From Berkelbacteria bacterium GW2011_GWE1_39_12 (lineage in GTDB: Bacteria > Patescibacteriota > UBA1384 > UBA12157), in contig CP011213.1 of assembly GCA_001029735.1 (NCBI GenBank), positions 524,613 to 588,612 of the forward strand: DNA of 64,000 bases. Reading direction: 5' to 3'. Below, piece by piece: positions 30,349 to 41,223 of this stretch (position 1 is its first letter; each line of letters starts with the position of its first letter). Under the pieces are notes generated by a model. That model had not been told where the DNA came from, searched no databases, and worked only from the letters and a program-made list of their open reading frames with translations. Made by a program: the position numbers and the translations under genes.

Positions 30349-31275
30349 TCATGAAATTTTCTTCAAAACTTTTTTAAGATCAAATCCTGTTGAGTATAAA
30401 ATTGAAGAAAATAAATCTCCCTTCTTTTTAAGTCGAGCCGTTACTGTTTTCAAATTAAAATCTTCCGGGTTTAAGCCGCTTCTTATTTCCTCCCAATCAA
30501 GAGGGACTGATACAGTAGCTTTTATGGCTGGACGAACTGAATAAGGTGCAACGGTTGTTTTGTCTAATCCGTTTTGTAACCAATCTAAATATACCTTACC
30601 TTTTCTTTTTTTTGGGCTTCTTTCCAGACTAGTAAAATCTGCTGCCTTGCGATGTGCTAAGTTTGCAATAATCTCTGCCAATGTCTTTATTTGTGCGTAA
30701 TCGTATTTAGCGCCTGTAGGCAGATAGATATGTAGGCCTCTTTTTCCAGAAGTTTTTGGGTAACCCTCAATATTAAGATCGTCTAAAATCTCTTTAATTA
30801 TTAAAGCCGTCTTTATGACGTTATCAAAAGAGCTTTCAACAGGATCAAGATCAAGTATTAAATAGTCAGGTTTTTCGAAATCTGGGCCTTTTGAAGCCCA
30901 GGGATTTATTTCAATACAGCCCAGATTCACCACATAAATTAAAGAGGCAAGATCGTTAATGATTAAATACTTAGTTAAACTATTTTCCATCTTGCTGACT
31001 GTTTTAGTTTCAATCCAATCGGGTAGATTTAAATTGGAAGTGTCTTTTTGAAAAAAACCTAATCCTTTAATTCCATCTGGTGTTCGAAAAAGTGATTCAG
31101 GCCTTCCTTCTAAATACGGTAGAATAAACGGTGCGATTTCTGTATAAAAATTTATTAAATCTAATTTAGAGATTTTTTCTTCTGGCCAAAATATTTTCGA
31201 TGGATTCGAAATTTTAACTTTTTTGTTTTCAAGTGTTAATATCATTTCAGAATTTTGATTTATTAATTTCGGCAT
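30349..31275 (-). CDS. ligD: LigD polymerase (primase-like) domain protein
   Basis: 'KISNPSKIFWPEEKISKLDLINFYTEIAPFILPYLEGRP...FRTPDG' and 'YSVRPAIKATVSVPLDWEEI', characteristic of the LigD Pol domain. Overlaps the upstream gene by 29 nt; the alternative ATG at 31245 would abut its stop codon instead. Confidence 0.8.
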   Translation of the reverse strand: MPKLINQNSEMILTLENKKVKISNPSKIFWPEEKISKLDLINFYTEIAPFILPYLEGRPESLFRTPDGIKGLGFFQKDTSNLNLPDWIETKTVSKMENSLTKYLIINDLASLIYVVNLGCIEINPWASKGPDFEKPDYLILDLDPVESSFDNVIKTALIIKEILDDLNIEGYPKTSGKRGLHIYLPTGAKYDYAQIKTLAEIIANLAHRKAADFTSLERSPKKRKGKVYLDWLQNGLDKTTVAPYSVRPAIKATVSVPLDWEEIRSGLNPEDFNLKTVTARLKKKGDLFSSILYSTGFDLKKVLKKIS

Positions 31276-32749
31276 CTTCGAAAGTTACCTCATTAGGATT
31301 TTTGTCTTCTCTTAAACCTAAGAAGACGGCTTGTCTCAACATTTTATCTTTTGTCAGTTCTTGGTACCTAATCTCAATGACTATATCCGGAGCAACCCAT
31401 GTTGAATTCGGAAGCCGATTAAAATTTCCAAAAGGGGAATCCTTAATAATTTTTTGTCTTAGTTTTGAGTAGAACATTTCAAGATCTTTTTCTGTAAAAC
31501 CGGTCCCAACTCCACCGATAAACCTAAACTTATCTTTTTCAAAAATTCCTACTAATAATGATCCGAAGTATTTTCTGCCATTTTTGGGCTTTGTAAAGCC
31601 ACCAACCACAACTTCTTGCTGGGTTAAGGCTTTAATCTTTAGCCAATCTTTTGATCGAACTCCTTCGTGATATAAGCTATCCTTTTTCTTAGCGATAATT
31701 CCTTCGATGTTGTTTATTTTTGCTATTTCGAAAAATCTTTTTCCCTCTTTTTCGATAAATTCAGATTTCTTTAAATACGGAAGATCGGTAAGTATTTCGT
31801 CGAGGATTTGTTTCCTTTTAGTTAAGGGCAATACTTCGCAATTCTTCCCAGAAATATTCAAAACGTCAAAAACATAGTATATTAAATTACCCTCTTTAGT
31901 TTTTGAATAATCTTGAATTAAATGAAAATCTGGGTATCCCTTATCATTTAGAACCGTAATTTCTCCATCGAGTATACAATCAATGCTCAATTTTTTAAGC
32001 GATGAAACTAATTCGGGAAATCTTTTATTTAAAGATAATTGATTTCTTGAGATTAATTCAACTGAGCCATTTTTAATTAGCGCTAATGCTCGATAGCCGT
32101 CCCACTTAATTTCATAAAGCCAGTCTGGACTATCAAAAGGTTCGTGCACTAAAGTAGTCATCATTGGTTTGGCCATTTTAATATCTTTTGGTGGAAGTGA
32201 ACTTAGATCTAACTTTCCGCCTTTAAGCCAAAATACTTCTTTTTCGTTTTTAACTGGCTCTTCACTAAATTTTTTTTCCCTCGAAAATTCATCATTAGCT
32301 TTTATAAATAGCCAATAATTTTCCCCTTTAATTTTTTGTATTTTTACCAAAGCAAACTCGCCTTTAAGTTTTTTTCCTTTCAGCAAAAAAGTCAGGTGGC
32401 CGCTTTCTAAATTTTTATTATCTAAAAACTTATATTTACCTTTGTCCCAAATTTCTACCGTACCAGCGCCATAGTTACCCTCGGGAATCACTCCTTCGAA
32501 ATTTATATATTCTAAAGGATGGTCTTCGACTTGAACAGCCAATCTTTTTATTTTTGGATCTAATGTCGGTTTTTTTGGAATTGCCCAGCTTTTTAAAACG
32601 CCTTCCATTTGCAATCTAAAATCATAATGAAGATGCGATGCGTTGTGCTTTTGAATTACAAAATTTGAATCGGAACTACCCGTCAATTTTCCGAAGGGCT
32701 CCGGTGTTTTTTTGAATCGCCTTTTTGTTCGATATTTTCCTAAGGCCAC
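31247..32749 (-). CDS. ligD: LigD 3'-phosphoesterase (PE) + ATP-dependent DNA ligase domain protein
   Basis: PE domain 'FVIQKHNASHLHYDFRLQMEGVLKSWAIPKKP'. Ligase adenylation motif 'YEIKWDGYRALA' (KxDG). Confidence 0.85.
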   Translation of the reverse strand: MALGKYRTKRRFKKTPEPFGKLTGSSDSNFVIQKHNASHLHYDFRLQMEGVLKSWAIPKKPTLDPKIKRLAVQVEDHPLEYINFEGVIPEGNYGAGTVEIWDKGKYKFLDNKNLESGHLTFLLKGKKLKGEFALVKIQKIKGENYWLFIKANDEFSREKKFSEEPVKNEKEVFWLKGGKLDLSSLPPKDIKMAKPMMTTLVHEPFDSPDWLYEIKWDGYRALALIKNGSVELISRNQLSLNKRFPELVSSLKKLSIDCILDGEITVLNDKGYPDFHLIQDYSKTKEGNLIYYVFDVLNISGKNCEVLPLTKRKQILDEILTDLPYLKKSEFIEKEGKRFFEIAKINNIEGIIAKKKDSLYHEGVRSKDWLKIKALTQQEVVVGGFTKPKNGRKYFGSLLVGIFEKDKFRFIGGVGTGFTEKDLEMFYSKLRQKIIKDSPFGNFNRLPNSTWVAPDIVIEIRYQELTKDKMLRQAVFLGLREDKNPNEVTFEDAEINKSKF

Positions 32750-32751
32750 TT

Positions 32752-33531
32752 CTAAACCTTAGTTTTAGTTTTAGCTTTCTTTAAACTTTCTTGTAGCATT
32801 TTCATAAGGTCGGGGACAGGCGTAGGTTTTTTGACCGGAACAGCTTCCGGTTCCTTACCTGAAAGTTTTTGTTCGATAATTTTTTTCAAATTTTCGTTAA
32901 AATTATCTTTGTAGTTTTCAATCTCAATTGGCTTTTCTAAACTCGATATTAAATTAACCGCAAGTTTTAATTCGTCGTTTGTTACTTCTGAGGCTGCAGG
33001 ATTTTTTAATTCTTCTGGGCTTCTTATTTCATCTTGAAATCGAATTTGTTCCAAAATTAAATAACCATTTTCTACCTGCAAGGTCGCAAGATGCTCTCTG
33101 TTACGAATGGAAAATTTAGCTACTGCAATTCTTTTAGTTTGAATTAATGCTTCGCGAAGTAAGGCAAAAGATTTTTCAGCGCCTTCGTTTGGCTCTAGAT
33201 AATATGGTTTTTGATCTAGCATTCGATTAACTTTTTCTTTATCAGTGAAACCGACTATATTGATGCTTTTGTAGCTCGGTGAATTAACTTGTAGAAAGTC
33301 TTTTTCCGTTAAAACAACGTATTGATCCTTTTCATATTCATAGCCTTTGACGATTTCCGCATACGGAACCTCTTTTTCTTCTTCAACACAAACTCTGGCG
33401 AAACGAATCGGTGATAAATCCTTTTTATGAAGCATATCAAAATTATACACTCGATCATTCGATGCAGAATAAAGTTTAATTGGAATACTAATTAAGAAGA
33501 AATTTAAACTGCCCGACCAAATTGCTTTCAT
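32752..33531 (-). CDS. ku: Ku DNA-end-binding protein
   Basis: 'MKAIWSGSLNFFLISIPIKLYSAS...ARVC...YYLEP' matches the bacterial Ku core. Abuts the ligD genes. Confidence 0.85.
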   Translation of the reverse strand: MKAIWSGSLNFFLISIPIKLYSASNDRVYNFDMLHKKDLSPIRFARVCVEEEKEVPYAEIVKGYEYEKDQYVVLTEKDFLQVNSPSYKSINIVGFTDKEKVNRMLDQKPYYLEPNEGAEKSFALLREALIQTKRIAVAKFSIRNREHLATLQVENGYLILEQIRFQDEIRSPEELKNPAASEVTNDELKLAVNLISSLEKPIEIENYKDNFNENLKKIIEQKLSGKEPEAVPVKKPTPVPDLMKMLQESLKKAKTKTKV

Positions 33532-33635
33532 TTCACCTCTTAAAAAGTATAGTCTATTACTTTGTGAAAAGGTTTGTGGATATTAATAATGATTTACTTA
33601 ATGATTATTAATAGGATAAATAAGAAAGGAAAAGA

Positions 33636-33938
33636 ATGGTTTATCCCTATAGAAATAGATTTTTGGTCTATCTGGTTGATTTAGTGTTTTCACTGATTGA
33701 ACTTCTGCTCGTAATGAGAATACTTTTGCGTCTTTTTGGCGCTTCGCCTAGCGCATCTTTCGTGCGTTGGATTTTTGATACAACTTCTTCCCTGCTACGT
33801 CCATTTTTCGGTATCTTTCCCACGACTGCGATTAATCATGTTTATATATTAGAGCTTTCAACTTTGTTCGCTTTGGTAGTATATGCGATTTTACATTATC
33901 TAATCGTTGAACTTTTGAATTGGTTTGCTGCTCGATAA
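33636..33938 (+). CDS. YggT family membrane protein
   Basis: 'LLLVMRILLRLFGASPSASFVRWIFDTTSSLLRPFFGIFP' matches the YggT repeat. Confidence 0.65.
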   Translation: MVYPYRNRFLVYLVDLVFSLIELLLVMRILLRLFGASPSASFVRWIFDTTSSLLRPFFGIFPTTAINHVYILELSTLFALVVYAILHYLIVELLNWFAAR

Positions 33939-34160
33939 TTAGTTTTGTTTAAAAAGATTTAAAAGCTCAAAGAAAAAGCGGCCCACAATTGGGATGTTGG
34001 TTAGAACTTTTATTATATACAGCAAGATAGTAGCAAATAACGCTGAACCTAAAAAGAATCCAAAACCACCAAAAATCCCTTTGATAAATGTCCACTTTAA
34101 AGAATTAGCTTTTATTAATTCATTTTTTAATTCTAGAATAGGATTTTTTTGAATATTCAT
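33939..34160 (-). CDS. Small two-TM protein; hypothetical
   Basis: 73-aa ORF with a 'GIFGGFGFFLGSALFATILLYII' helix. Confidence 0.4.
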   Translation of the reverse strand: MNIQKNPILELKNELIKANSLKWTFIKGIFGGFGFFLGSALFATILLYIIKVLTNIPIVGRFFFELLNLFKQN

Positions 34161-34309
34161 TGTTTACTTATATTTTACTTGATTGAAAATAAAAACTCTT
34201 GATAAATAAAACAAATATTACACAAGATTTTAAAGAATTTATGAGCTAATTGCCAATGATTTTCGAGTTTAAAATAATCAAACTGAAAGTAAGAATGGGG
34301 GCGATATTA

Positions 34310-34504
34310 ATGAATAACAGCCAAAGGAAAGGGACAGAAAAAAGAGGATTTGCTTCAATGAGTCCTGACGAGCAAAAAAAAATTGCCAGTATGGGTGGAA
34401 AAGCTGCACATCAAAAAGGTACTGCGCATGAATTTACTTCTTCCGAAGCTCGAGAAGCCGGTCGCAAAGGGGGACGATCCTCCCAAAAAAGTCGAGCAAG
34501 ATAA
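34310..34504 (+). CDS. KGG-repeat stress-induced protein (YciG/con-10-like)
   Basis: 'RGFASMSPDEQKKIASMGGKAAHQKG...REAGRKGGRSS' KGG motifs. Start set at MNNSQ, which has a G-rich SD. Confidence 0.65.
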   Translation: MNNSQRKGTEKRGFASMSPDEQKKIASMGGKAAHQKGTAHEFTSSEAREAGRKGGRSSQKSRAR

Positions 34505-34554
34505 TATGCAAAATTTGATTAACTCAAAAAATCATCGGCTATACCGATGATTTT

Positions 34555-34878
34555 TTATTCGACACCATTATTTTCAATTAATTCATTTACTTTTATTTTA
34601 CCACTAGTTTCTAAATGAGCCTCACAGTGATATCCAAATTCGCCAGGATCGTTAAAAGTGTGTTCAAAAGTCTCGCCGGGTCTAATTATTTGAGATGAGA
34701 AGAAATTATCATCAGATGTGACCGTATGTTCTTTGTCGCCGACATTTTGCCAAATTACTTTTGAATTTGGATAAATTTCTAAAAAATCAGGATCAAATAC
34801 GTCATCAGTAATAACTATATTTGATCTTTCTAAATTACTTTCACTTATCTCGTCTAAGAATTCTTTTTCTTGGTTCAT
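34555..34878 (-). CDS. Cupredoxin-like (plastocyanin/amicyanin-fold) small protein
   Basis: 'KEHTVTSDD...PGEFGYHCEAHLETSGKIKV' resembles a type-1 copper H...C..H ligand arrangement. No axial Met is seen. Confidence 0.45.
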   Translation of the reverse strand: MNQEKEFLDEISESNLERSNIVITDDVFDPDFLEIYPNSKVIWQNVGDKEHTVTSDDNFFSSQIIRPGETFEHTFNDPGEFGYHCEAHLETSGKIKVNELIENNGVE

Positions 34879-34984
34879 AATTAAATTTTATAAAAAATTA
34901 TTAAAATAAACTTCGTCAAATAAAACAAAGTTTTCTAAATCAATAACCGGAGAATTTCTCCGGTTATTGTTAAATAAAGCTATC

Positions 34985-35636: not shown

Positions 35637-38360
35637 TTATCGGATGAATTTAGAAGAGAGCTTAGAAATGTTTGGAATGTCATCGCTTTTGGTAGCTTTT
35701 TGGCCTAAACGATAAAAATATTTTCGGATTTCTTCCACTACGATTATTGATAAACTAATAGTAATGATTGTTACCCAGTCAATAAAATTTAATGGAGTTG
35801 TGTGCAAAATCCTCTGCATAATTGGATTATAGACTGCTAACATCTGTAGCAGAATAACTATGATAGTCGCTCCGACTAAAAATTTATTGGAAAAAAATCT
35901 CATCTGAAAGATCGATTTTTCTTCTGAACGACAGTTCCAAGCGTTGAACCATTGAAAAACCGCTAATGTTGTCAAAGATATCGTCCAGGCTTTAGTAATA
36001 TCGACTTGATAGAACCTGCTAAAAAGATAAAGCGTACCAACCATCATTGGTAGAGCCATTAAAATAATTCTCTTTGTCATTAAGGAATCAATCAGATATT
36101 TAGAAGGTTTTTCAGGTTTTTCCTTGAGCAAACCGTCTTCTTTCGGTTCCATCGCCAATGACATGTCTAAAAAACCATCAGTAACTAAATTGAGCCAAAT
36201 AATCTGTGCCGGTAATATGGGTAGTGCCCATCCTAAAACAAGTGCTCCCGATATAGTTAAAACTTCGCCTATGCTGGTGGAGAAAAGATACAGAATCACC
36301 TTTTTAATGGTTTTATAGATCGATCGACCTTCTTCGACCGCTGAGACAATGCTGCCGAAATTATCGTCCAAAAGAACAATGTCAGCGGCTTCTTTAGTTA
36401 CCTCAGTACCGATTTTCCCCATCGCCACTCCTAAATCGGCAGCAACAAGGGAAGGCGCGTCATTAACGCCGTCGCCAGTCATCGCAATAATTTCCCCTCT
36501 TGTCCTAAAAGCTTTGATTATCATCAGTTTGTGTTCGGGAGTTACTCTGGCGAAAACCGAGGTATAATCAAGTTTTTCTGAAAGTTCAGTTTCGGAAAGT
36601 TTTTCAAGTTCTTCACCTGTTAAAATCATATCTCCTTGCGAGAAGATCCCCGCCTCTTGGGCAACTGCCTTGGCCGTAATCGGATGGTCGCCGGTAATCA
36701 TTACAATTCTAATACCGGCAGAATGTGCTTTTTGAACTGCATTATGGACTTCTGGGCGAAGAGCATCTTTCATGCCCAAAAAGCCCAAGAAGGTTAGTGA
36801 ATTAACCTCGTCTAGCTTAAGACTTGTAGAGATTTTATCCGAAGTTGCGATAGCGACCACTCTTAAACCTTCTTTAGACATTTCTTGAAAAGTTGACTCA
36901 AGTTTTTTAACCTCTACCAAAGATAATTCTTCAACTTTCCCATCCCGCCAGATTTTCTGGGAAAGTTTTAAAATCGTCTCGGGTGCTCCAGAAACTGTCA
37001 TTATTTTGTTTAATCCTTCTTGATTTACAACTGTGCGAAGTTTATGTCTGTAATCAAAGGGAGTCTCGGCAATCTTTGGCAAATCTTTTTCCGTCTTGTC
37101 TCTGTCAATCCCTAGTTTATTGGCAAATACCAACATAGCCGCCTCTGTTGGATCGCCTGAAACTTGATGGTTACCTTTCTCAAAAGTTACATTTGCCCCT
37201 GAGGACAACAATGTATGCAAAGATAAGGTTTCTAACTCAGGAAAATCACTAAGATTGATCGTTTTCCCATCAATTTTTACTTCTCCTTTTGGTTCGTAAC
37301 CTTCACCGGTAATTTGAAAGCATTTTCCATTAATAAATACTTTTTGGACCATCATTTCATTCTTTGTGATCGTGCCCGTTTTATCAACTGCAATAATTTT
37401 AGTTTGCCCTAGCGCTTCAACAGCATAAAGTTTTTTGATCAAAGCATTGCGCTTACTCATCCTCCAGACCCCGGTGGTCAGAATCAGAGTCATCACAATT
37501 GGCAAACCCTCTGGAATTATCGAAACAGCCAAAGAAACCACCGTTCTAAACATTTCAGAAAGGGGATTTCCATGAGCAATTCCAAGGAATATAAGAAGAG
37601 TACCAATTATTATGACAGCATAAACAATTAGTCGTGAAAGATAGCGGATGTTGGTTTTAAGAGGTATTTCCGTATCGATGGTAGCGATTTCTTTAGAGAT
37701 TTTCCCAATATAAGTATCTAACCCTGTGGCGACAACAATTGCTTTTCCATTTCCGGCAACAATGTGAGTTCCTTTGAAAACCATGTTTTTTTGATCGGAG
37801 ATCGGCAAATGAGTTGTTTCCAAAATCTCGGATATTTTACTTACAGGCTCTGACTCGCCAGTTAAGGTTGATTCATCGAGGCGCAACTGATTAGAAACTA
37901 ACAGACGAGCATCGGTAGGGATTTTCTCGCCTTCTTGCAAGACAATAATGTCACCAGGAACGAGTTCGCTATCTGAAATAATCGATTCTTTACCGTCCCT
38001 TAAAACAGTTGCCTTAGTGGCGACATAGTTTTTAAGTGCTAAGAGTGTATTTTGGGCTTTCCCTTCTTGAATGGTGCCGACAATCGCATTAAAGAAAAGA
38101 ACAAACAGGATCAATCCTCCATCGGTATACTCCTTTAGAAAGAGGGTAATGACGGCGGCGGCAAAAAGGATATAGATTAGAGGACTTTGAAATTGACGAA
38201 AAAATATTACCAGCAAACTATCTGATTTCGCTTCAGGAAGTTTGTTCTGTCCGTACTTTAGTAAGCGGTTTTTGCTTTCTGGATTCGTTAAACCTTCTAT
38301 ATTGGAACCAAAATCAGCCAAGATTGTCTCAGTTGATTTATTAAACCATAAATTGTTCAC
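35637..38360 (-). CDS. P2-type cation-transporting ATPase (Ca2+-ATPase-like)
   Basis: 'DKTGTITKN' phosphorylation motif, 'IPEGLP' TM4 motif, 'TGDGVNDAPSL' hinge, and the N-terminal cation-ATPase domain. Confidence 0.9.
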   Translation of the reverse strand: MNNLWFNKSTETILADFGSNIEGLTNPESKNRLLKYGQNKLPEAKSDSLLVIFFRQFQSPLIYILFAAAVITLFLKEYTDGGLILFVLFFNAIVGTIQEGKAQNTLLALKNYVATKATVLRDGKESIISDSELVPGDIIVLQEGEKIPTDARLLVSNQLRLDESTLTGESEPVSKISEILETTHLPISDQKNMVFKGTHIVAGNGKAIVVATGLDTYIGKISKEIATIDTEIPLKTNIRYLSRLIVYAVIIIGTLLIFLGIAHGNPLSEMFRTVVSLAVSIIPEGLPIVMTLILTTGVWRMSKRNALIKKLYAVEALGQTKIIAVDKTGTITKNEMMVQKVFINGKCFQITGEGYEPKGEVKIDGKTINLSDFPELETLSLHTLLSSGANVTFEKGNHQVSGDPTEAAMLVFANKLGIDRDKTEKDLPKIAETPFDYRHKLRTVVNQEGLNKIMTVSGAPETILKLSQKIWRDGKVEELSLVEVKKLESTFQEMSKEGLRVVAIATSDKISTSLKLDEVNSLTFLGFLGMKDALRPEVHNAVQKAHSAGIRIVMITGDHPITAKAVAQEAGIFSQGDMILTGEELEKLSETELSEKLDYTSVFARVTPEHKLMIIKAFRTRGEIIAMTGDGVNDAPSLVAADLGVAMGKIGTEVTKEAADIVLLDDNFGSIVSAVEEGRSIYKTIKKVILYLFSTSIGEVLTISGALVLGWALPILPAQIIWLNLVTDGFLDMSLAMEPKEDGLLKEKPEKPSKYLIDSLMTKRIILMALPMMVGTLYLFSRFYQVDITKAWTISLTTLAVFQWFNAWNCRSEEKSIFQMRFFSNKFLVGATIIVILLQMLAVYNPIMQRILHTTPLNFIDWVTIITISLSIIVVEEIRKYFYRLGQKATKSDDIPNISKLSSKFIR

Positions 38361-38364
38361 GGAG

Positions 38365-38565
38365 CTACTCCTTGATTTGCTTTAAGCCAATAATGGCAAG
38401 ATAAATGATGGGGACAACAAAAATAATCCAAAGCAAAATAACGGCCATATCGGTCAAAAACCAACCTGGAAAATAAACGGTGATTAGAACACCGGCGGCG
38501 ATCATGGAAAACTTAAGTAGCCCCAATTGCCACCAAGAAAACGAATAATCTTTAAATGGATGCAT
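38365..38565 (-). CDS. Small two-TM membrane protein, apparently co-transcribed with the P-type ATPase gene
   Basis: AAGGAG SD precedes an ATG at 38565 (MHPFKDYSFSWWQLGLLKFSMIAAGVLITVYF...). The ORF-track start at 38652 lies inside the promoter/-35 region. Confidence 0.5.
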   Translation of the reverse strand: MHPFKDYSFSWWQLGLLKFSMIAAGVLITVYFPGWFLTDMAVILLWIIFVVPIIYLAIIGLKQIKE

Positions 38566-38645
38566 TTTGCTCCTTTGTTTAATTTTACCACAGAAAGATG
38601 ATAAGTAATTGTACTGCAAATAAACGGATGAAAAACGTAAAAAAC

Positions 38646-38674
38646 TTGACAAATATGAACATATGTTCTAAAAT
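38646..38674 (+). promoter_or_regulatory. Sigma70-like promoter (TTGACA-17-TAAAAT) with a perfect 12-bp palindrome GAACATATGTTC in the spacer
   Basis: TTGACA at 38646-38651, 17-nt spacer 'aatatgaacatatgttc', TAAAAT at 38669-38674. Confidence 0.5.
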
Positions 38675-38680
38675 AAAATT

Positions 38681-38761
38681 AATCAATTTGATTTCAAACT
38701 TGTTTATAATCAATTTGATTTCAAACTTGTTTATAATCAATTTGATTTCAAACTTGTTTAT
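38681..38761 (+). repeat. Three perfect tandem copies of a 27-bp unit (AATCAATTTGATTTCAAACTTGTTTAT), each containing a TTTGA-N2-TCAAA palindrome. Probable operator/iteron array in the 5' leader.
   Basis: Direct reading: the unit repeats at 38681, 38708 and 38735. The array ends 20 nt before the ATG of the DUF134 gene. Confidence 0.9.
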
Positions 38762-38781
38762 TTTTACTAGAAAAGGAAAAT

Positions 38782-39297
38782 ATGCGTAATGGAAAACGGG
38801 GAAGAAAAAAACTTTTAAGAACAATTCATTTTTGTCCAGAAATAACCTACTTTAAACCGGTGGGGGTTCCTTTGAGAAACTTACAAGAGGAGGTTTTGAC
38901 TTTGGATGAAGTCGAAGCAATACGCTCGACAGATCTAGACGATCTAAATCAAGAAGAAGCGGCTATAAAAATGGGAATTTCCAGGATTACATATTTAAGA
39001 ATTTTACATAGTGCGCACAAAAAAATAGCCAGAAGTTTAATTTATGGTAAAGCAATTCAAATGAGAGGAGGTGATGTAATTATGCCAAACTTAGACGGGA
39101 CCGGCCCCCAGGGCCATGGTTCGCAAACTGGACAAGGACAGGGTTGGGGTAAAAAACAAGGACAAGGATTAGGCGGCACTGAAGAGTGTGTCTGCCCAAA
39201 ATGTGGCGAAAAAGTATCGCATCGCAGAGGAGTTCCCTGTAGCCAAATGATTTGCCCGAAATGTAACGCGCCTTTAACAGGAAAATTTTGTGAGTAA
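38782..39297 (+). CDS. DUF134 (UPF0251) HTH DNA-binding domain fused to a DUF5320 Gly-rich segment and a C-terminal CxxC...CxxC zinc ribbon
   Basis: 'CPEITYFKPVGVPLRNLQEEVLTLDEVEAIRSTDLDDLNQEEAAIKMGISRITYLRILHSAHKKIARSLIYGKAI' (DUF134). 'MPNLDGTGPQGHGSQTGQGQG' (DUF5320-like). 'CVCPKCGEKVSHRRGVPCSQMICPKCNAPL'. AAAGGAAAA SD. Confidence 0.75.
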   Translation: MRNGKRGRKKLLRTIHFCPEITYFKPVGVPLRNLQEEVLTLDEVEAIRSTDLDDLNQEEAAIKMGISRITYLRILHSAHKKIARSLIYGKAIQMRGGDVIMPNLDGTGPQGHGSQTGQGQGWGKKQGQGLGGTEECVCPKCGEKVSHRRGVPCSQMICPKCNAPLTGKFCE

Positions 39298-39327
39298 GAA
39301 ATTTTTTATAGAAGGGAGGTGACTAAT

Positions 39328-39570
39328 ATGCCAAGATTAAATGGAACAGGTCCGCAAGGAATGGGACCAATGACAGGAAGAGGTTTGGGTTCTTGCGGAG
39401 GTGGTAGAGGATATGGACGGGGAATGGGTTGTGGCTATGGTTGTGGAATGCCCTGGTCATATCGACAGCCGAATATTGACGAAGAAAAAGAAATGATTAA
39501 AGATGACATTGCCGTTTTAAAAGAAGAATTAAAAGCCGCCGAAGAGCGTCTTTCAGAGTTGAATAAGTAG
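39328..39570 (+). CDS. DUF5320 family protein (Gly/Cys-rich N-terminus and coiled-coil C-terminus)
   Basis: 'MPRLNGTGPQGMGPMTGRGLGSCGGGRGYGRGMGCGYGCGMPW' followed by a coiled coil. GAAGGGAGG SD before the ATG at 39328. Confidence 0.75.
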   Translation: MPRLNGTGPQGMGPMTGRGLGSCGGGRGYGRGMGCGYGCGMPWSYRQPNIDEEKEMIKDDIAVLKEELKAAEERLSELNK

Positions 39571-39635
39571 AATAAAAATGAAGAGGGAATTAACGGAAAC
39601 CCACTTCCCTCTTCACTTGTATTGTAAGGAGATTT

Positions 39636-40031
39636 ATGGACTCATACAATGTGTGCGGGCAGATCCCCGTTATTAAAGAAATATCGTGGGTTGTAATCAC
39701 TAGTGCCGCGCTAGTCGATTCAATTAATCCTTGCGCAATCGCGGTATTGTTAATTTTATTAGGATCGCTTCTTACCTTAAAAACTAAAAGGCAAGCAGTT
39801 TTAACTGGGCTATCTTTTGTTGTCGGCTTGTTTGTTGCTTATTTTTTAGCAGGCTTCGGACTTTTTCATGCCTTAACTTTGGTTGGAATCGCCAAGTGGT
39901 TCCATCTGGTAGTGGGGATATTGGCAATAATTATTGGACTTTCCAATGTCAAAGACTATTTTTGGTATGGGGCGGGTGGATTTGTTACTGAAATCCCAAA
40001 TCGCTGGCGGCCAAAAATGAAAAATATTTGA
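39636..40031 (+). CDS. ccdA: CcdA/DsbD-family thiol-disulfide transporter, N-terminal half. The gene is split or frameshifted.
   Basis: 'DSINPCAIAVLLILLGSLL' first conserved Cys-containing TM. The ORF ends in an A-rich tract, and the continuation lies in another frame. Confidence 0.6.
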   Translation: MDSYNVCGQIPVIKEISWVVITSAALVDSINPCAIAVLLILLGSLLTLKTKRQAVLTGLSFVVGLFVAYFLAGFGLFHALTLVGIAKWFHLVVGILAIIIGLSNVKDYFWYGAGGFVTEIPNRWRPKMKNI

Positions 40032-40342
40032 CAAAAATTGTAAAACCGTTGCCAGCTTTTTTGATTGGTTTTGTGATTATTTTCTTCGAGCTGCCGTGTA
40101 CTGGCGGACCGTATCTATTTACTCTGGGCTATCTCGCTAGTCTGCCCAAATTTTCTTTAGTGCCAATACTTATCTATTATAACTTGATCTTTATTTTGCC
40201 GCTTTTGCTTATTATCGGTCTGGTGTATTTTGGATATTCTAGTATTGAAAAAACAACTCAATGGAAAGATAAAAACATTAGGATTTTACACCTTATTTCT
40301 GGTATAATAATGTTGGGTCTAGGTCTTTGGATAATTAATTAG
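40028..40342 (+). CDS. ccdA: CcdA/DsbD-family thiol-disulfide transporter, C-terminal half (TTG start overlapping the upstream stop)
   Basis: 'FFELPCTGGPYLFTLGYLAS' second conserved Cys motif. The two halves together come to ~235 aa. Confidence 0.6.
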   Translation: MTKIVKPLPAFLIGFVIIFFELPCTGGPYLFTLGYLASLPKFSLVPILIYYNLIFILPLLLIIGLVYFGYSSIEKTTQWKDKNIRILHLISGIIMLGLGLWIIN

Positions 40343-40351
40343 AATGGGATA

Positions 40352-41089
40352 ATGACTTTACTATTTATTCTTTTGGCTACTTTTATTAATGGATTAGTCG
40401 CTTTTACAGGTGCTACTTTTTTATTTTTTGGCCCTAAGAAGTATGGAAAAATCCTTTTTTTACTCGTTGCTTTTTCGACTGGCGCATTGCTCGGCGGTGC
40501 ATTTTTTCATCTTATTCCTGAATCTTTAGAAGCCATTGATTCAAATTTGACTTTTATATTGGTCTTGATTGGTTTCTCTGCTTTTTTTCTGATGGAAAAA
40601 TACTTTCATTGGCGTCATTGTCATGACGATGAATGCAATATCCATCCTGCCAGTTACCTGCTATTGTTTGGCGATGGAATCCATAATTTTATTGACGGCT
40701 TAGTTATAGCTGCTTCTTTTATGGTTGATTTTCGATTTGGTGTCATTACGACAATCCTTATTATCGCCCATGAATTGCCTCAAGAACTGGGAGATTTCGG
40801 TGTTTTAGTCCATTTGGGTATGAAAGTTAAAAAAGCCCTAATTTATAATTTTCTCTCACAATTAACAGCGGTTGCTGGGGGGATTGTCGGATATATTTTA
40901 TCGGGTAACACTGAATTTAGCACTGCAATGCTACCGATAGCTGCCGGCGGATTTATCTATATTGCGGCCTCTGATCTAATTCCTGAATTACATAAAGAGC
41001 GACAGCTTAAACGCTCAATTGCTAATTACTCAATCTTTTTAGTGGGTATTTGTTTTATTGTTATTCTAAAAATTTTATTGGGTGAATAG
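40352..41089 (+). CDS. zupT: ZIP-family metal (Zn/Fe) transporter ZupT
   Basis: 'HNFIDGLVIAASF' and 'HELPQELGDFGVLV' ZIP signatures. Confidence 0.85.
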   Translation: MTLLFILLATFINGLVAFTGATFLFFGPKKYGKILFLLVAFSTGALLGGAFFHLIPESLEAIDSNLTFILVLIGFSAFFLMEKYFHWRHCHDDECNIHPASYLLLFGDGIHNFIDGLVIAASFMVDFRFGVITTILIIAHELPQELGDFGVLVHLGMKVKKALIYNFLSQLTAVAGGIVGYILSGNTEFSTAMLPIAAGGFIYIAASDLIPELHKERQLKRSIANYSIFLVGICFIVILKILLGE

Positions 41090-41223
41090 CTCTCGATCAA
41101 TTTTCTGATTTACTCAATTTGCTCCACTTAAAAAGTTTCATATATTAAGCGGAGAGATTTGGGTTACCCATCTTCACGATCTAAACTGCAATATCAGCTG
41201 ATTCAAGCCAAATATTACAAAAA

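What the first reader, a model, noticed from the sequence alone, without database searches (positions are those of the whole stretch)
38782..39570. Unusual domain fusion: DUF134 HTH + DUF5320 Gly-rich module + zinc ribbon, followed by a stand-alone DUF5320 gene
DUF134 (UPF0251) and DUF5320 are usually separate neighbouring genes in archaeal and clostridial Fe-S/metal contexts. Here the first ORF fuses the DUF134 HTH to a DUF5320-like 'MPNLDGTGPQG...' segment and a 4-Cys ribbon (CxxC-N13-CxxC). The next gene is a classical DUF5320 with a Gly/Cys-rich N-terminus and a coiled coil. The fusion suggests the two families physically interact (regulator plus metal-sensing partner) and gives a handle on the function of both DUFs. 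The locus is also unusual for a CPR-like genome.
Basis: partly seen in the sequence, partly recalled or inferred. Interest (0 to 1): 0.55.

Follow-up and report, generated by a model that had tools for sequence, protein, structure and literature searches.

The report
Autoregulated DUF134 regulator with metal-binding tail
The fused gene is real but common, and comparison with relatives shows it is very probably a self-regulating DNA-binding switch with a metal-binding tail that in some lineages, including this genome, heads an operon holding a small partner protein and metal transporters, which gives two families of unknown function a testable role.

Summary
Both ORFs exist as described. ORF A (38782-39297, 171 aa) is a DUF134 HTH, then a disordered Gly-rich linker that starts with the DUF5320 N-terminal motif, then a Cys/His module. 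ORF B (true start 39328) is a canonical DUF5320.

The fusion is not an artefact and not unusual. All 120 listed homologues keep the same 7-Cys/1-His spacing, and DUF134 fused to the DUF5320 motif recurs in at least six phyla. The ribbon is CxCxxC-x5-H-x5-C-x4-CxxC-x8-C. It has no Pfam family, yet it matches 1,751 protein clusters.

New result: a palindrome, GAACATATGTTC, fills the -35/-10 spacer of the gene's promoter (38657-38668). It is conserved upstream of DUF134 operons across phyla. It co-varies with the DUF134 recognition helix (SR with GAAC, AR with TGAC, SQ with GAAT), including in an archaeon. So DUF134 most likely binds it and autoregulates, and it is not a LexA box.

Operons with this operator recurrently hold DUF5320 plus ZIP or CDF transporters. 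A conserved Shine-Dalgarno sequence before internal Met101 suggests a second, 71-aa product. Metal sensing is inferred, not shown.

The parts
38646..38674 (+). Sigma-70-type promoter of the operon: TTGACA, 17-nt spacer, TAAAAT
   Evidence: It is the best promoter-like site in 38300-41200, matching 11 of 12 positions. The same TTGACA-N5/6-palindrome-TAxAAT arrangement is conserved in homologous loci.
38657..38668 (.). Operator palindrome GAACATATGTTC (extended ATATGAACATATGTTCTAAA), filling the -35/-10 spacer. Proposed DUF134 binding site.
   Evidence: It is the only copy in the 64-kb window. 22 of 80 loci have it with <=1 mismatch within 300 bp upstream of DUF134, against 2 hits in 811 kb of background. 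It co-varies with the DUF134 recognition helix. Its flanks differ from LexA-type sites.
38680..38761 (+). Three perfect copies of a 27-bp tandem repeat in the predicted 5' leader, between the -10 box and the ribosome-binding site. Specific to this genome.
   Evidence: It is absent from homologous loci, which have roughly 10-30 nt between the -10 box and the ribosome-binding site in most cases. The copy number is unresolved: a 100-N scaffold gap sits inside the array in L083. As RNA it folds at -23.4 kcal/mol, z = -2.7.
38782..39297 (+). ORF A, 171 aa: DUF134 HTH, Gly-rich linker, Cys/His module
38794..39081 (+). DUF134 domain (residues 5-100), a sigma-70 region 4-like HTH. The recognition helix is ...GISRITYLRILHSAHKK...
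   Evidence: Pfam 81.2 bits. The AlphaFold model has pLDDT about 90 for residues 41-88. Foldseek matches sigma-70 region 4 and DeoR/SorC HTH domains.
39067..39084 (+). Internal Shine-Dalgarno sequence GGAGGTGAT, 6 nt, then the ATG of Met101. Candidate in-frame internal start giving a 71-aa product.
   Evidence: It is conserved at the nucleotide level in CPR, PVC-type and archaeal fusions. Only 3-4% of other internal ATGs have such a motif.
39082..39177 (+). MPNLDGTGPQG motif (the DUF5320 N-terminal motif) plus Gly-rich linker, residues 101-132
   Evidence: Pfam DUF5320 scores 21.6 bits, below the cutoff, and covers profile positions 1-29 only. The region is predicted disordered, pLDDT below 50. 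The motif is present in 107 of 120 homologues.
39178..39294 (+). Cys/His module CxCxxC-x5-H-x5-C-x4-CxxC-x8-C (residues 133-171), giving eight potential metal ligands
   Evidence: The pattern is invariant in 120 of 120 homologues. pLDDT is 70-81. It is an independent domain found in 1,751 clusters and has no Pfam family.
39328..39570 (+). ORF B, stand-alone DUF5320 (80 aa): MPRLNGTGP motif, Gly/Cys-rich stretch, C-terminal coiled coil. Its Shine-Dalgarno sequence GGGAGGTGA lies at 39314-39322.
   Evidence: Pfam 59.4 bits, full profile length. Gene callers place the start at 39328.
39568..39626 (+). Inverted repeat (core GAAGAGGGAA / TTCCCTCTTC) just after ORF B. Possible internal attenuator or RNA-stabilising hairpin.
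   Evidence: repeat I3. It has no T-tract and was not called as a terminator.
39636..40342 (+). DsbD_2/SfLAP-like membrane protein, split here into 131-aa and 104-aa ORFs
   Evidence: Weak Pfam hits. Homologues in L013 and L086 are single 236-aa ORFs. The same split appears in three assemblies.
40352..41089 (+). ZIP-family divalent-metal transporter, last gene of the putative operon
   Evidence: Pfam Zip 153 bits. ZIP or CDF genes recur in operator-bearing DUF134 operons.

Best explanation
ORF A is a genuine, conserved one-component transcription regulator.

DNA binding (supported by comparative data). Its DUF134 domain is a sigma-70 region 4-like helix-turn-helix. It most likely binds as a dimer to the palindrome TATGAACAT-ATGTTCATA. 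That palindrome fills the 17-nt spacer between the -35 and -10 boxes of its own promoter.

Regulatory effect (inferred from position). Binding there would block RNA polymerase. The protein would then repress its own operon: DUF134 fusion, DUF5320, DsbD_2-like membrane protein, ZIP transporter.

Signal input (inferred). The C-terminal half is a flexible Gly-rich linker that begins with the DUF5320 N-terminal motif. It is followed by a compact module with seven Cys and one His. That gives eight ligands, most simply two tetrahedral metal sites: a zinc-ribbon site (C138, C141, C158, C161) and a second site (C136, H147, C153, C170). I propose this tail is the signal-input part. Occupancy by a transition metal such as Zn or Fe, or cysteine redox state, would modulate DNA binding. 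The operon's transporters would then follow metal status.

Partner protein (inferred). DUF5320 shares the MPxxDGTGP motif and is co-transcribed. It is proposed to be a partner or co-regulator.

Second product (hypothesis). A conserved internal ribosome-binding site suggests that the tail (residues 101-171) is also made as a separate 71-aa protein.
For: Real and conserved: the identical protein is on 8 contigs, and the three loci shown come from different sources or samples. All 120 homologue clusters keep the exact Cys/His spacing.

HTH: Pfam DUF134 81 bits, a confident model of the HTH core, and fold matches to sigma-70 region 4 and DeoR HTH domains.

Operator:
- The palindrome lies in the spacer of the best promoter and occurs once in the 64-kb window.
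- 22 of 80 loci have it upstream of DUF134, against 2 hits in 811 kb of background.
- It is conserved from Patescibacteria to Planctomycetota, Verrucomicrobia, Lentisphaerae and Syntrophia-type loci.

Co-variation with the recognition helix:
- SR helix with GAACATATGTTC in 35 of 36 loci.
- AR helix with [TC]GACATATGT[TC]A in 7 of 7 loci.
- SQ helix with GAATATATATTC: 6 exact hits in 974 kb, all at the promoters of DUF5320-first operons in Peribacteria and in a Woesearchaeota archaeon.

Metal link:
- The window operon ends in ZIP.
- L086: fusion, DUF5320, DsbD_2, MBL, ZIP, CDF, ZIP.
- L012: fusion, DUF5320, CDF fused to Nitro_FeMo-Co. L022: DUF5320, CDF, DUF134.
- ZIP or CDF lies within 6 kb in 14 of 102 DUF134 loci, against 0 of 104 control loci covering 589 kb.
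- The module co-occurs with Nitro_FeMo-Co domains in P0121.

Internal start.
Against: - No experiment exists. Neither DNA binding nor metal binding has been shown for any DUF134 or DUF5320 protein in the literature available here.
- Most Patescibacteria homologues have no DUF5320 or metal transporter nearby. The metal link holds for a minority of loci, about 14%.
- The Cys/His module could be purely structural, could serve dimerisation, or could hold an Fe-S cluster.
- The AR and SQ co-variations each rest on one or two clades. The SQ case could reflect horizontal transfer of a whole cassette.
- The operator core is identical to the Gram-positive-type LexA box.
- L086 has an importer (ZIP) and an exporter (CDF) in one operon. 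That does not fit a simple metal-repression logic.
Confidence: 0.6

Rival explanations
1. The palindrome is a LexA (SOS) box. On this view the DUF134 operon belongs to the DNA-damage regulon and DUF134 does not bind its own promoter.
For: GAAC-N4-GTTC is the classic Gram-positive/Actinobacteria LexA box (established knowledge). A metagenome scan for TTGACA-N5/6-GAACATATGTTC mostly returned promoters of genes that look like SOS genes: imuA-like, dnaE2, dinB and radical-SAM repair genes, identified from their N-terminal sequences only. Only 14 of 107 downstream ORFs were DUF134.
Against: - DUF134-associated sites always have TAT 5' of GAAC and ATA or TA.A 3'. SOS-type sites have A or C 5' and T or G 3'.
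- The site co-varies with the DUF134 recognition helix in three states.
- The SQ/GAAT variant is not a LexA box, and it occurs in an archaeon, which has no LexA.
- PMC7739468 cites the Verrucomicrobia and Patescibacteria LexA papers as cases of non-canonical, direct-repeat LexA motifs. The primary papers could not be read.
Confidence: 0.07
2. DUF134 autoregulates as described, but the Cys/His module is only a structural zinc ribbon for folding or dimerisation, or it is a redox or Fe-S sensor. The true signal would then not be cytosolic metal level. The DUF5320 motif would be a docking peptide for another partner, for example NifX-like or MinD-type Fe-S proteins.
For: In other phyla DUF134 neighbours are often Nitro_FeMo-Co (NifX-like) proteins: 14 of 60 loci. 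The module is fused to such domains in P0121. Most CPR loci lack adjacent transporters. Some clade members lose the MP motif but keep the module.
Against: ZIP or CDF genes sit inside operator-bearing operons in four independent arrangements. Eight invariant ligands are more than a single structural site needs.
Confidence: 0.28
3. The apparent fusion is a frameshift, assembly or stop-codon-loss artefact of two adjacent genes.
For: Met101 with its own Shine-Dalgarno sequence looks like a former gene start. Stand-alone versions of the C-terminal half exist (P0150, P0158). In L063 an in-frame TGA separates the two parts.
Against: The identical ORF appears in independent assemblies. All 120 homologue clusters, down to 55% identity, are fused in the same frame with the same spacing.
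Confidence: 0.01

Closest known systems
DUF134 / UPF0251 (Pfam PF02001, COG1342, NCBIfam PRK04217)
   Same: Residues 5-100 match at 81 bits. NCBI already annotates the identical protein as 'DUF134 domain-containing protein' from a Candidatus Berkelbacteria bacterium.
   Different: The family has no described function, operator or structure in the sources searched. This protein adds a 71-aa tail. The NCBIfam equivalog cutoff is not reached (71 against 115 bits).
DUF5320 (Pfam PF17253)
   Same: ORF B is a full-length member (59 bits). The tail of ORF A begins with the family's N-terminal MPxxDGTGPxG motif.
   Different: ORF A has only profile positions 1-29 and scores below the cutoff. It has a Cys/His module where DUF5320 has a coiled coil.
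Sigma-70 region 4 and SorC/DeoR-type N-terminal HTH domains
   Same: These are the best fold and sequence matches for the DNA-binding core. B. subtilis DeoR also binds palindromic operators.
   Different: The E-values are weak (0.02-0.1). There is no sigma region 2 and no SorC sugar-binding domain, so this is a resemblance and not membership.
Metal-responsive repressors whose operators overlap the -35/-10 region (Zur/Fur, ArsR/SmtB, CsoR, NikR)
   Same: The proposed logic is the same: a dimeric repressor on a palindrome inside the promoter of a transporter operon, with a Cys/His metal site as input.
   Different: There is no sequence or fold relationship to any of them. Metal dependence is untested.
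LexA box of Gram-positive bacteria (GAAC-N4-GTTC)
   Same: The 12-bp core is identical.
   Different: The flanks differ. The site co-varies with DUF134. It is also present in an archaeon.
Genes that yield two proteins by in-frame internal initiation (for example CheA long/short, IF2, ClpB; from general knowledge)
   Same: A strong Shine-Dalgarno sequence plus ATG lies inside the ORF, in frame and at a domain boundary.
   Different: No protein-level evidence exists here.

Membership tests
DUF134 (PF02001) | Whole-protein score at or above the Pfam gathering cutoff (27 bits) over the full domain | tested here: met
   81.2 bits, residues 5-100, profile positions 3-96 of 98
DUF5320 (PF17253), ORF B | Score at or above the cutoff (27 bits) over the full 99-position profile, meaning the N-terminal motif plus the coiled coil | tested here: met
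   59.4 bits, profile positions 1-99
DUF5320 (PF17253), tail of ORF A | Score at or above the cutoff over the full profile | tested here: not met
   21.6 bits against a cutoff of 27, covering profile positions 1-29 only. The tail shares the N-terminal motif but is not a family member in the strict sense.
Named zinc-ribbon families (Zn_ribbon_SprT, Zn_ribbon_Top1, DZR and others) | Score at or above the family's gathering cutoff | tested here: not met
   17.1 bits against 28.1, and 14.4 against 32. Stand-alone and multi-copy carriers of the module also have no Pfam hit above threshold for it.
Metal-binding Cys/His domain (generic) | Invariant ligand set with fixed spacing | tested here: met
   The pattern C-x-C-x2-C-x5-H-x5-C-x4-C-x2-C-x8-C is present in 120 of 120 homologues.
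Metal-binding Cys/His domain (generic) | Bound metal and its stoichiometry | not testable with these tools
   This needs ICP-MS or spectroscopy on purified protein.
Autoregulated HTH repressor | Palindromic site inside its own promoter, conserved in orthologous loci | tested here: met
Autoregulated HTH repressor | The site co-evolves with the protein's recognition helix | tested here: met
   Three helix/half-site pairs
Autoregulated HTH repressor | Direct binding and repression | not testable with these tools
   This needs EMSA or footprinting and reporter assays.
LexA (SOS) regulon member | The site matches the LexA motif of the same organism and is shared with recA and lexA promoters | tested here: inconclusive
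   The core matches the Gram-positive-type box, but the flanks differ. The window has no recA or lexA by motif search. The primary Patescibacteria and Verrucomicrobia LexA papers are not held.

The most novel reading that the evidence does not exclude
DUF134 is a widespread family of autoregulators found in bacteria and archaea, with a simple and readable recognition code. Helix Ser-Arg reads GAAC, Ala-Arg reads TGAC and Ser-Gln reads GAAT.

In the fused forms one ORF would make two proteins. The first is the full-length repressor. The second is its free 71-aa tail (DUF5320 motif plus a two-metal Cys/His module), made from a conserved internal ribosome-binding site. The free tail and the stand-alone DUF5320 would compete with or complement the tethered tail. 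Together they would form a previously undescribed metal-responsive switch that controls ZIP and CDF transporters in organisms with minimal genomes.
Probability: 0.25. Interest if true: 0.7.

Novelty: new variant of a known kind. Interest (0 to 1): 0.5.

Why it matters
DUF134 (UPF0251, COG1342) and DUF5320 are widespread in anaerobic bacteria, CPR bacteria and archaea. They had no assigned role in any source searched here.

The comparative evidence turns both into testable objects:
- a defined operator sequence;
- a predicted recognition code that single-residue swaps can test;
- a candidate set of regulated genes (DUF5320, a DsbD_2-like membrane protein, ZIP and CDF transporters);
- an unnamed Cys/His domain present in about 1,750 protein clusters.

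For Patescibacteria, which have very few recognisable regulators, this may be one of the few regulators of metal homeostasis.

Tried and rejected
- **Frameshift or assembly artefact.** Rejected. The ORF is identical in independent assemblies and fused in all 120 homologues.
- **The 27-bp x3 tandem repeat as the operator.** Rejected. It is specific to this genome and lies downstream of the -10 box. The conserved element is the palindrome upstream of it. Its copy number is not even resolved.
- **LexA box.** Considered seriously after the metagenome scan. It was set aside on the basis of flanks, helix/operator co-variation and the archaeal case.
- **Literature.** There is no functional study of DUF134, DUF5320, UPF0251, COG1342, PF02001 or PF17253 in the library. 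The Patescibacteria and Verrucomicrobia LexA papers are not held.
- **Solved structures.** None exists for DUF134 by sequence. The best match is the DeoR HTH at E = 0.02. Foldseek gives only generic sigma-70 region 4-type HTH hits and nothing for the ribbon.
- **PHROGs.** The module-bearing proteins that looked phage-like, and both window proteins, gave nothing meaningful.
- **Context of a stand-alone module gene (P0158).** Uninformative.
- **Second operator copies near transporter genes.** None was found within the fetched loci or the window. Control of the transporters can therefore only be through co-transcription.
Full report
**1. The observation**

The window holds two co-directional ORFs at the stated coordinates.

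ORF A (38782-39297, 171 aa) matches Pfam DUF134 at 81.2 bits over residues 5-100. Residues 101-129 match only the first 29 of the 99 DUF5320 profile positions. That match scores 21.6 bits, below the cutoff of 27. The C-terminus gets only sub-threshold zinc-ribbon hits.

ORF B is a full-length DUF5320 (59.4 bits). Gene callers, the family's Met-Pro N-terminus and the GGGAGGTGA six bases upstream all place its start at ATG 39328, not at GTG 39319.

Two details of the finding need correction:
- The CxxC pairs are 16 residues apart, not 13.
- The module has seven invariant Cys plus one invariant His, not four Cys.

**2. The fusion is real but not unusual**

The identical protein is encoded on 8 contigs. 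The three loci shown come from NCBI and two ENA samples. NCBI names it a DUF134 protein of a Candidatus Berkelbacteria bacterium.

A search of 5.8 billion proteins gave 151 clusters with E <= 0.001. The 120 listed have 55-82% identity and a median length of 169 aa. All 120 keep C-x-C-x2-C-x5-H-x5-C-x4-C-x2-C-x8-C with identical spacing, and 107 keep the MPxxDGTGP motif. A frameshift or assembly artefact is therefore excluded.

Across 80 loci from species-representative genomes, DUF134 proteins carry four recurrent kinds of C-terminus:
- None, giving a bare protein of about 100 aa.
- The MPxxDGTGP motif plus a Gly/Arg-rich tail with GPCGCG. This occurs in Verrucomicrobia, Planctomycetota, Lentisphaerae, Krumholzibacteria and Methanosarcinales.
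- The Cys/His module, with or without the motif. This occurs in Patescibacteria, Bacteroidota, Acidobacteriota, Caldisericum and Woesearchaeota.
- A different CxxC...CxxC ribbon, in Firmicutes and others.

It is also typical for this part of the CPR.

**3. The tail**

An AlphaFold model built on 26 homologues gives three regions:
- a confident HTH core (residues 41-88, pLDDT about 90);
- a disordered Gly-rich stretch (97-132, pLDDT below 50);
- a moderately confident small beta-rich module (133-168, pLDDT 70-81).

The HTH resembles sigma-70 region 4 and the DeoR/SorC HTH.

A profile of the Cys/His module alone, searched against 1.84 billion representative proteins, found 1,751 clusters at E <= 0.001. 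They include:
- many stand-alone proteins of 50-100 aa;
- proteins that equal residues 101-171 of ORF A as a separate gene (P0150, P0158: MPxLDGTGP, Gly-rich stretch, module);
- tandem duplications (P0134);
- large proteins with up to five copies. P0121 combines five modules with three Nitro_FeMo-Co domains and PDZ domains.

No Pfam family covers the module. Eight invariant ligands most simply mean two tetrahedral sites. One would be the zinc-ribbon knuckles (C138, C141, C158, C161). The other would be C136, H147, C153 and C170. This is inference. In non-CPR versions C170 is absent and a conserved ...EHH follows instead.

**4. The operator**

Alignment of the upstream regions of homologous loci showed a conserved promoter. 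It reads TTGACA, 5-6 nt, GAACATATGTTC, then a TATAAT-like box.

In the window this is the best promoter-like site: TTGACA-17-TAAAAT at 38646-38674, matching 11 of 12 positions. The palindrome lies at 38657-38668 and occurs once in 64 kb.

Across the 80 loci, 22 have the 12-mer with <=1 mismatch within 300 bp upstream of DUF134. The remaining 811 kb holds 2 such hits, and one of those was a mis-anchored true case.

The site extends to TTATGAACAT-ATGTTCATAA. It is found upstream of DUF134 in Patescibacteria, Planctomycetota, Verrucomicrobia, Lentisphaerae and Syntrophia-type loci.

**5. The LexA problem and how it was resolved**

A metagenome scan for the promoter-plus-palindrome returned mostly genes that look like SOS genes: imuA-like, dnaE2, dinB and radical-SAM repair genes. 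I identified these from their N-terminal sequences only. Just 14 of 107 downstream ORFs were DUF134. The 12-mer core is the classic Gram-positive-type LexA box. I therefore tested LexA site against DUF134 site in three ways.

First, the flanks differ. Every DUF134-associated site has TAT 5' of GAAC and ATA or TA.A 3'. The SOS-type sites have A or C 5' and T or G 3'.

Second, the site co-varies with the DUF134 recognition helix:
- Helix x[IV]SR.TF/Y goes with GAACATATGTTC in 35 of 36 loci.
- Helix x[IV]ARITY goes with [TC]GACATATGT[TC]A in 7 of 7 loci.
- Helix SQSTF/L goes with ttatGAATATATATTCatta. There are 6 exact occurrences in 974 kb, and every one sits at the promoter of an operon that holds DUF134.

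Third, the SQ/GAAT pair occurs in Peribacteria and also in a Woesearchaeota archaeon, which has no LexA. An Arg-to-Gln change paired with a C:G-to-T:A change is what a direct base contact would predict.

A review statement also lists Verrucomicrobia and Patescibacteria among phyla with non-canonical LexA motifs (PMC7739468). I could not read the primary papers.

I conclude, with good but not complete confidence, that DUF134 binds this palindrome. Because the site fills the -35/-10 spacer, I infer that DUF134 represses its own operon.

**6. What the operon contains**

| Locus | Gene order after the operator |
|---|---|
| Window | fusion, DUF5320, DsbD_2/SfLAP-like membrane protein (split here), ZIP |
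| L086 | fusion, DUF5320, DsbD_2-like, MBL-fold protein, ZIP, CDF, ZIP |
| L012 | DUF134-module, DUF5320, CDF fused to a Nitro_FeMo-Co domain |
| L022 (archaeon) | DUF5320, CDF, DUF134-module |
| Peribacteria | DUF5320, 420-aa membrane protein, bare DUF134, with a divergent ZIP |

ZIP or CDF lies within 6 kb of DUF134 in 14 of 102 loci. It is found in none of 104 unrelated control loci covering 589 kb.

The association is real but holds for a minority. Several Patescibacteria homologues stand alone with no such neighbours. In other phyla the commoner neighbour is a NifX-like protein (14 of 60 loci). Metal sensing is therefore my preferred reading of the tail, but it is not shown.

**7. A possible second product**

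Met101 is where the stand-alone versions begin. It is preceded by GGAGGTGAT and a 6-nt spacer, as strong a ribosome-binding site as that of ORF B.

- In 19 CPR loci, the two invariant Gly codons are GGA-GGT in 13 cases, where codon usage predicts about 8-12%. All 19 keep a G-rich, Shine-Dalgarno-like run (18 of them GGAGG or GGGGG) ahead of the ATG.
- In PVC-type and archaeal fusions the encoded residues differ (KGEN, KGMT, HGGD), yet most keep an AAGGAG- or GGAGG-type element 6-10 nt before ATG-CCA (10 of 14, plus a weaker AAGGAA in three).
- GGA is used at that site in the 12 of 14 junctions that encode a Gly there, against a 17% background.
- Only 3-4% of other internal ATGs in these loci have such a motif.

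This points to selection at the nucleotide level for an internal start. It could also be a retained relic of gene fusion or a translational pause site.

**8. Verdict**

It is partly wrong: the fusion is neither unusual nor CPR-atypical, and the metal-binding part is not DUF5320.

The added value lies in three items:
- the operator and its co-variation with the recognition helix;
- the recognition of an unnamed but widespread Cys/His domain;
- the candidate internal start.

I rate this as a new variant of a known kind, namely a one-component autoregulated HTH repressor with a new input module. Interest is moderate.

Noticed in passing
window 38680-38761: Three perfect copies of a 27-bp unit (TAATCAATTTGATTTCAAACTTGTTTA, which contains the palindrome AATCAA-T-TTGATT) lie in the predicted 5' leader of ORF A. 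Homologous loci lack it. In L083 a 100-N scaffold gap interrupts the array, so the true copy number is unknown. As RNA it folds into a long imperfect hairpin (-23.4 kcal/mol, z = -2.7).
   Followed up: partly
window 39636-40031 and 40028-40342: A DsbD_2/SfLAP-like membrane protein is split into 131-aa and 104-aa ORFs that overlap by 4 nt. Homologues in L013 and L086 are single 236-aa ORFs. The split appears in three independent assemblies, so it is a real frameshift or a split gene and not a one-off error.
   Followed up: partly
window 39067-39084: A perfect Shine-Dalgarno sequence (GGAGGTGAT) plus an in-frame ATG lies inside ORF A at the domain boundary. It is conserved at the nucleotide level across phyla and is a candidate internal translation start giving a 71-aa protein.
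   Followed up: yes
window 38670-38697 (minus strand) and 35637-38565 (minus strand): A weak promoter-like site on the minus strand (TTGAAA-16-TATTTT) abuts the operator. It faces a small membrane ORF and a 907-aa P2-type cation ATPase. The operator might therefore also affect this divergent unit. This was not tested.
   Followed up: no
window about 30350-34900 (L081 1568-6097, offset 28781): Ku, LigD ligase and LigD primase-polymerase genes (non-homologous end joining) and a cupredoxin-like gene lie just upstream of the ATPase.
   Followed up: no
L063 4450-4926: In a bin labelled Micrarchaeota, an in-frame TGA lies between the DUF134 part and the Cys/His module (WHG-TGA-GGYILTCMC...). This could be an unfused state, a pseudogene, or a reassigned or read-through stop codon.
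   Followed up: no
L012 6834-8039; P0121: L012 has a CDF metal exporter fused to a Nitro_FeMo-Co (NifX-like) domain. P0121 is a 1430-aa protein with 2 PDZ domains, 3 Nitro_FeMo-Co domains and 5 Cys/His modules. Both link the module to NifX-like cofactor-binding domains.
   Followed up: partly
L093-L212 (metagenome scan): TTGACA-N5/6-GAACATATGTTC also precedes genes whose N-terminal sequences look like FtsZ (L135, L146, L176), an ABC permease from human-gut contigs, a conserved membrane protein (MSANSIPFIPERIQVKRG...) and phage-like DNA methyltransferases. These are probably LexA-box promoters of other phyla.
   Followed up: no
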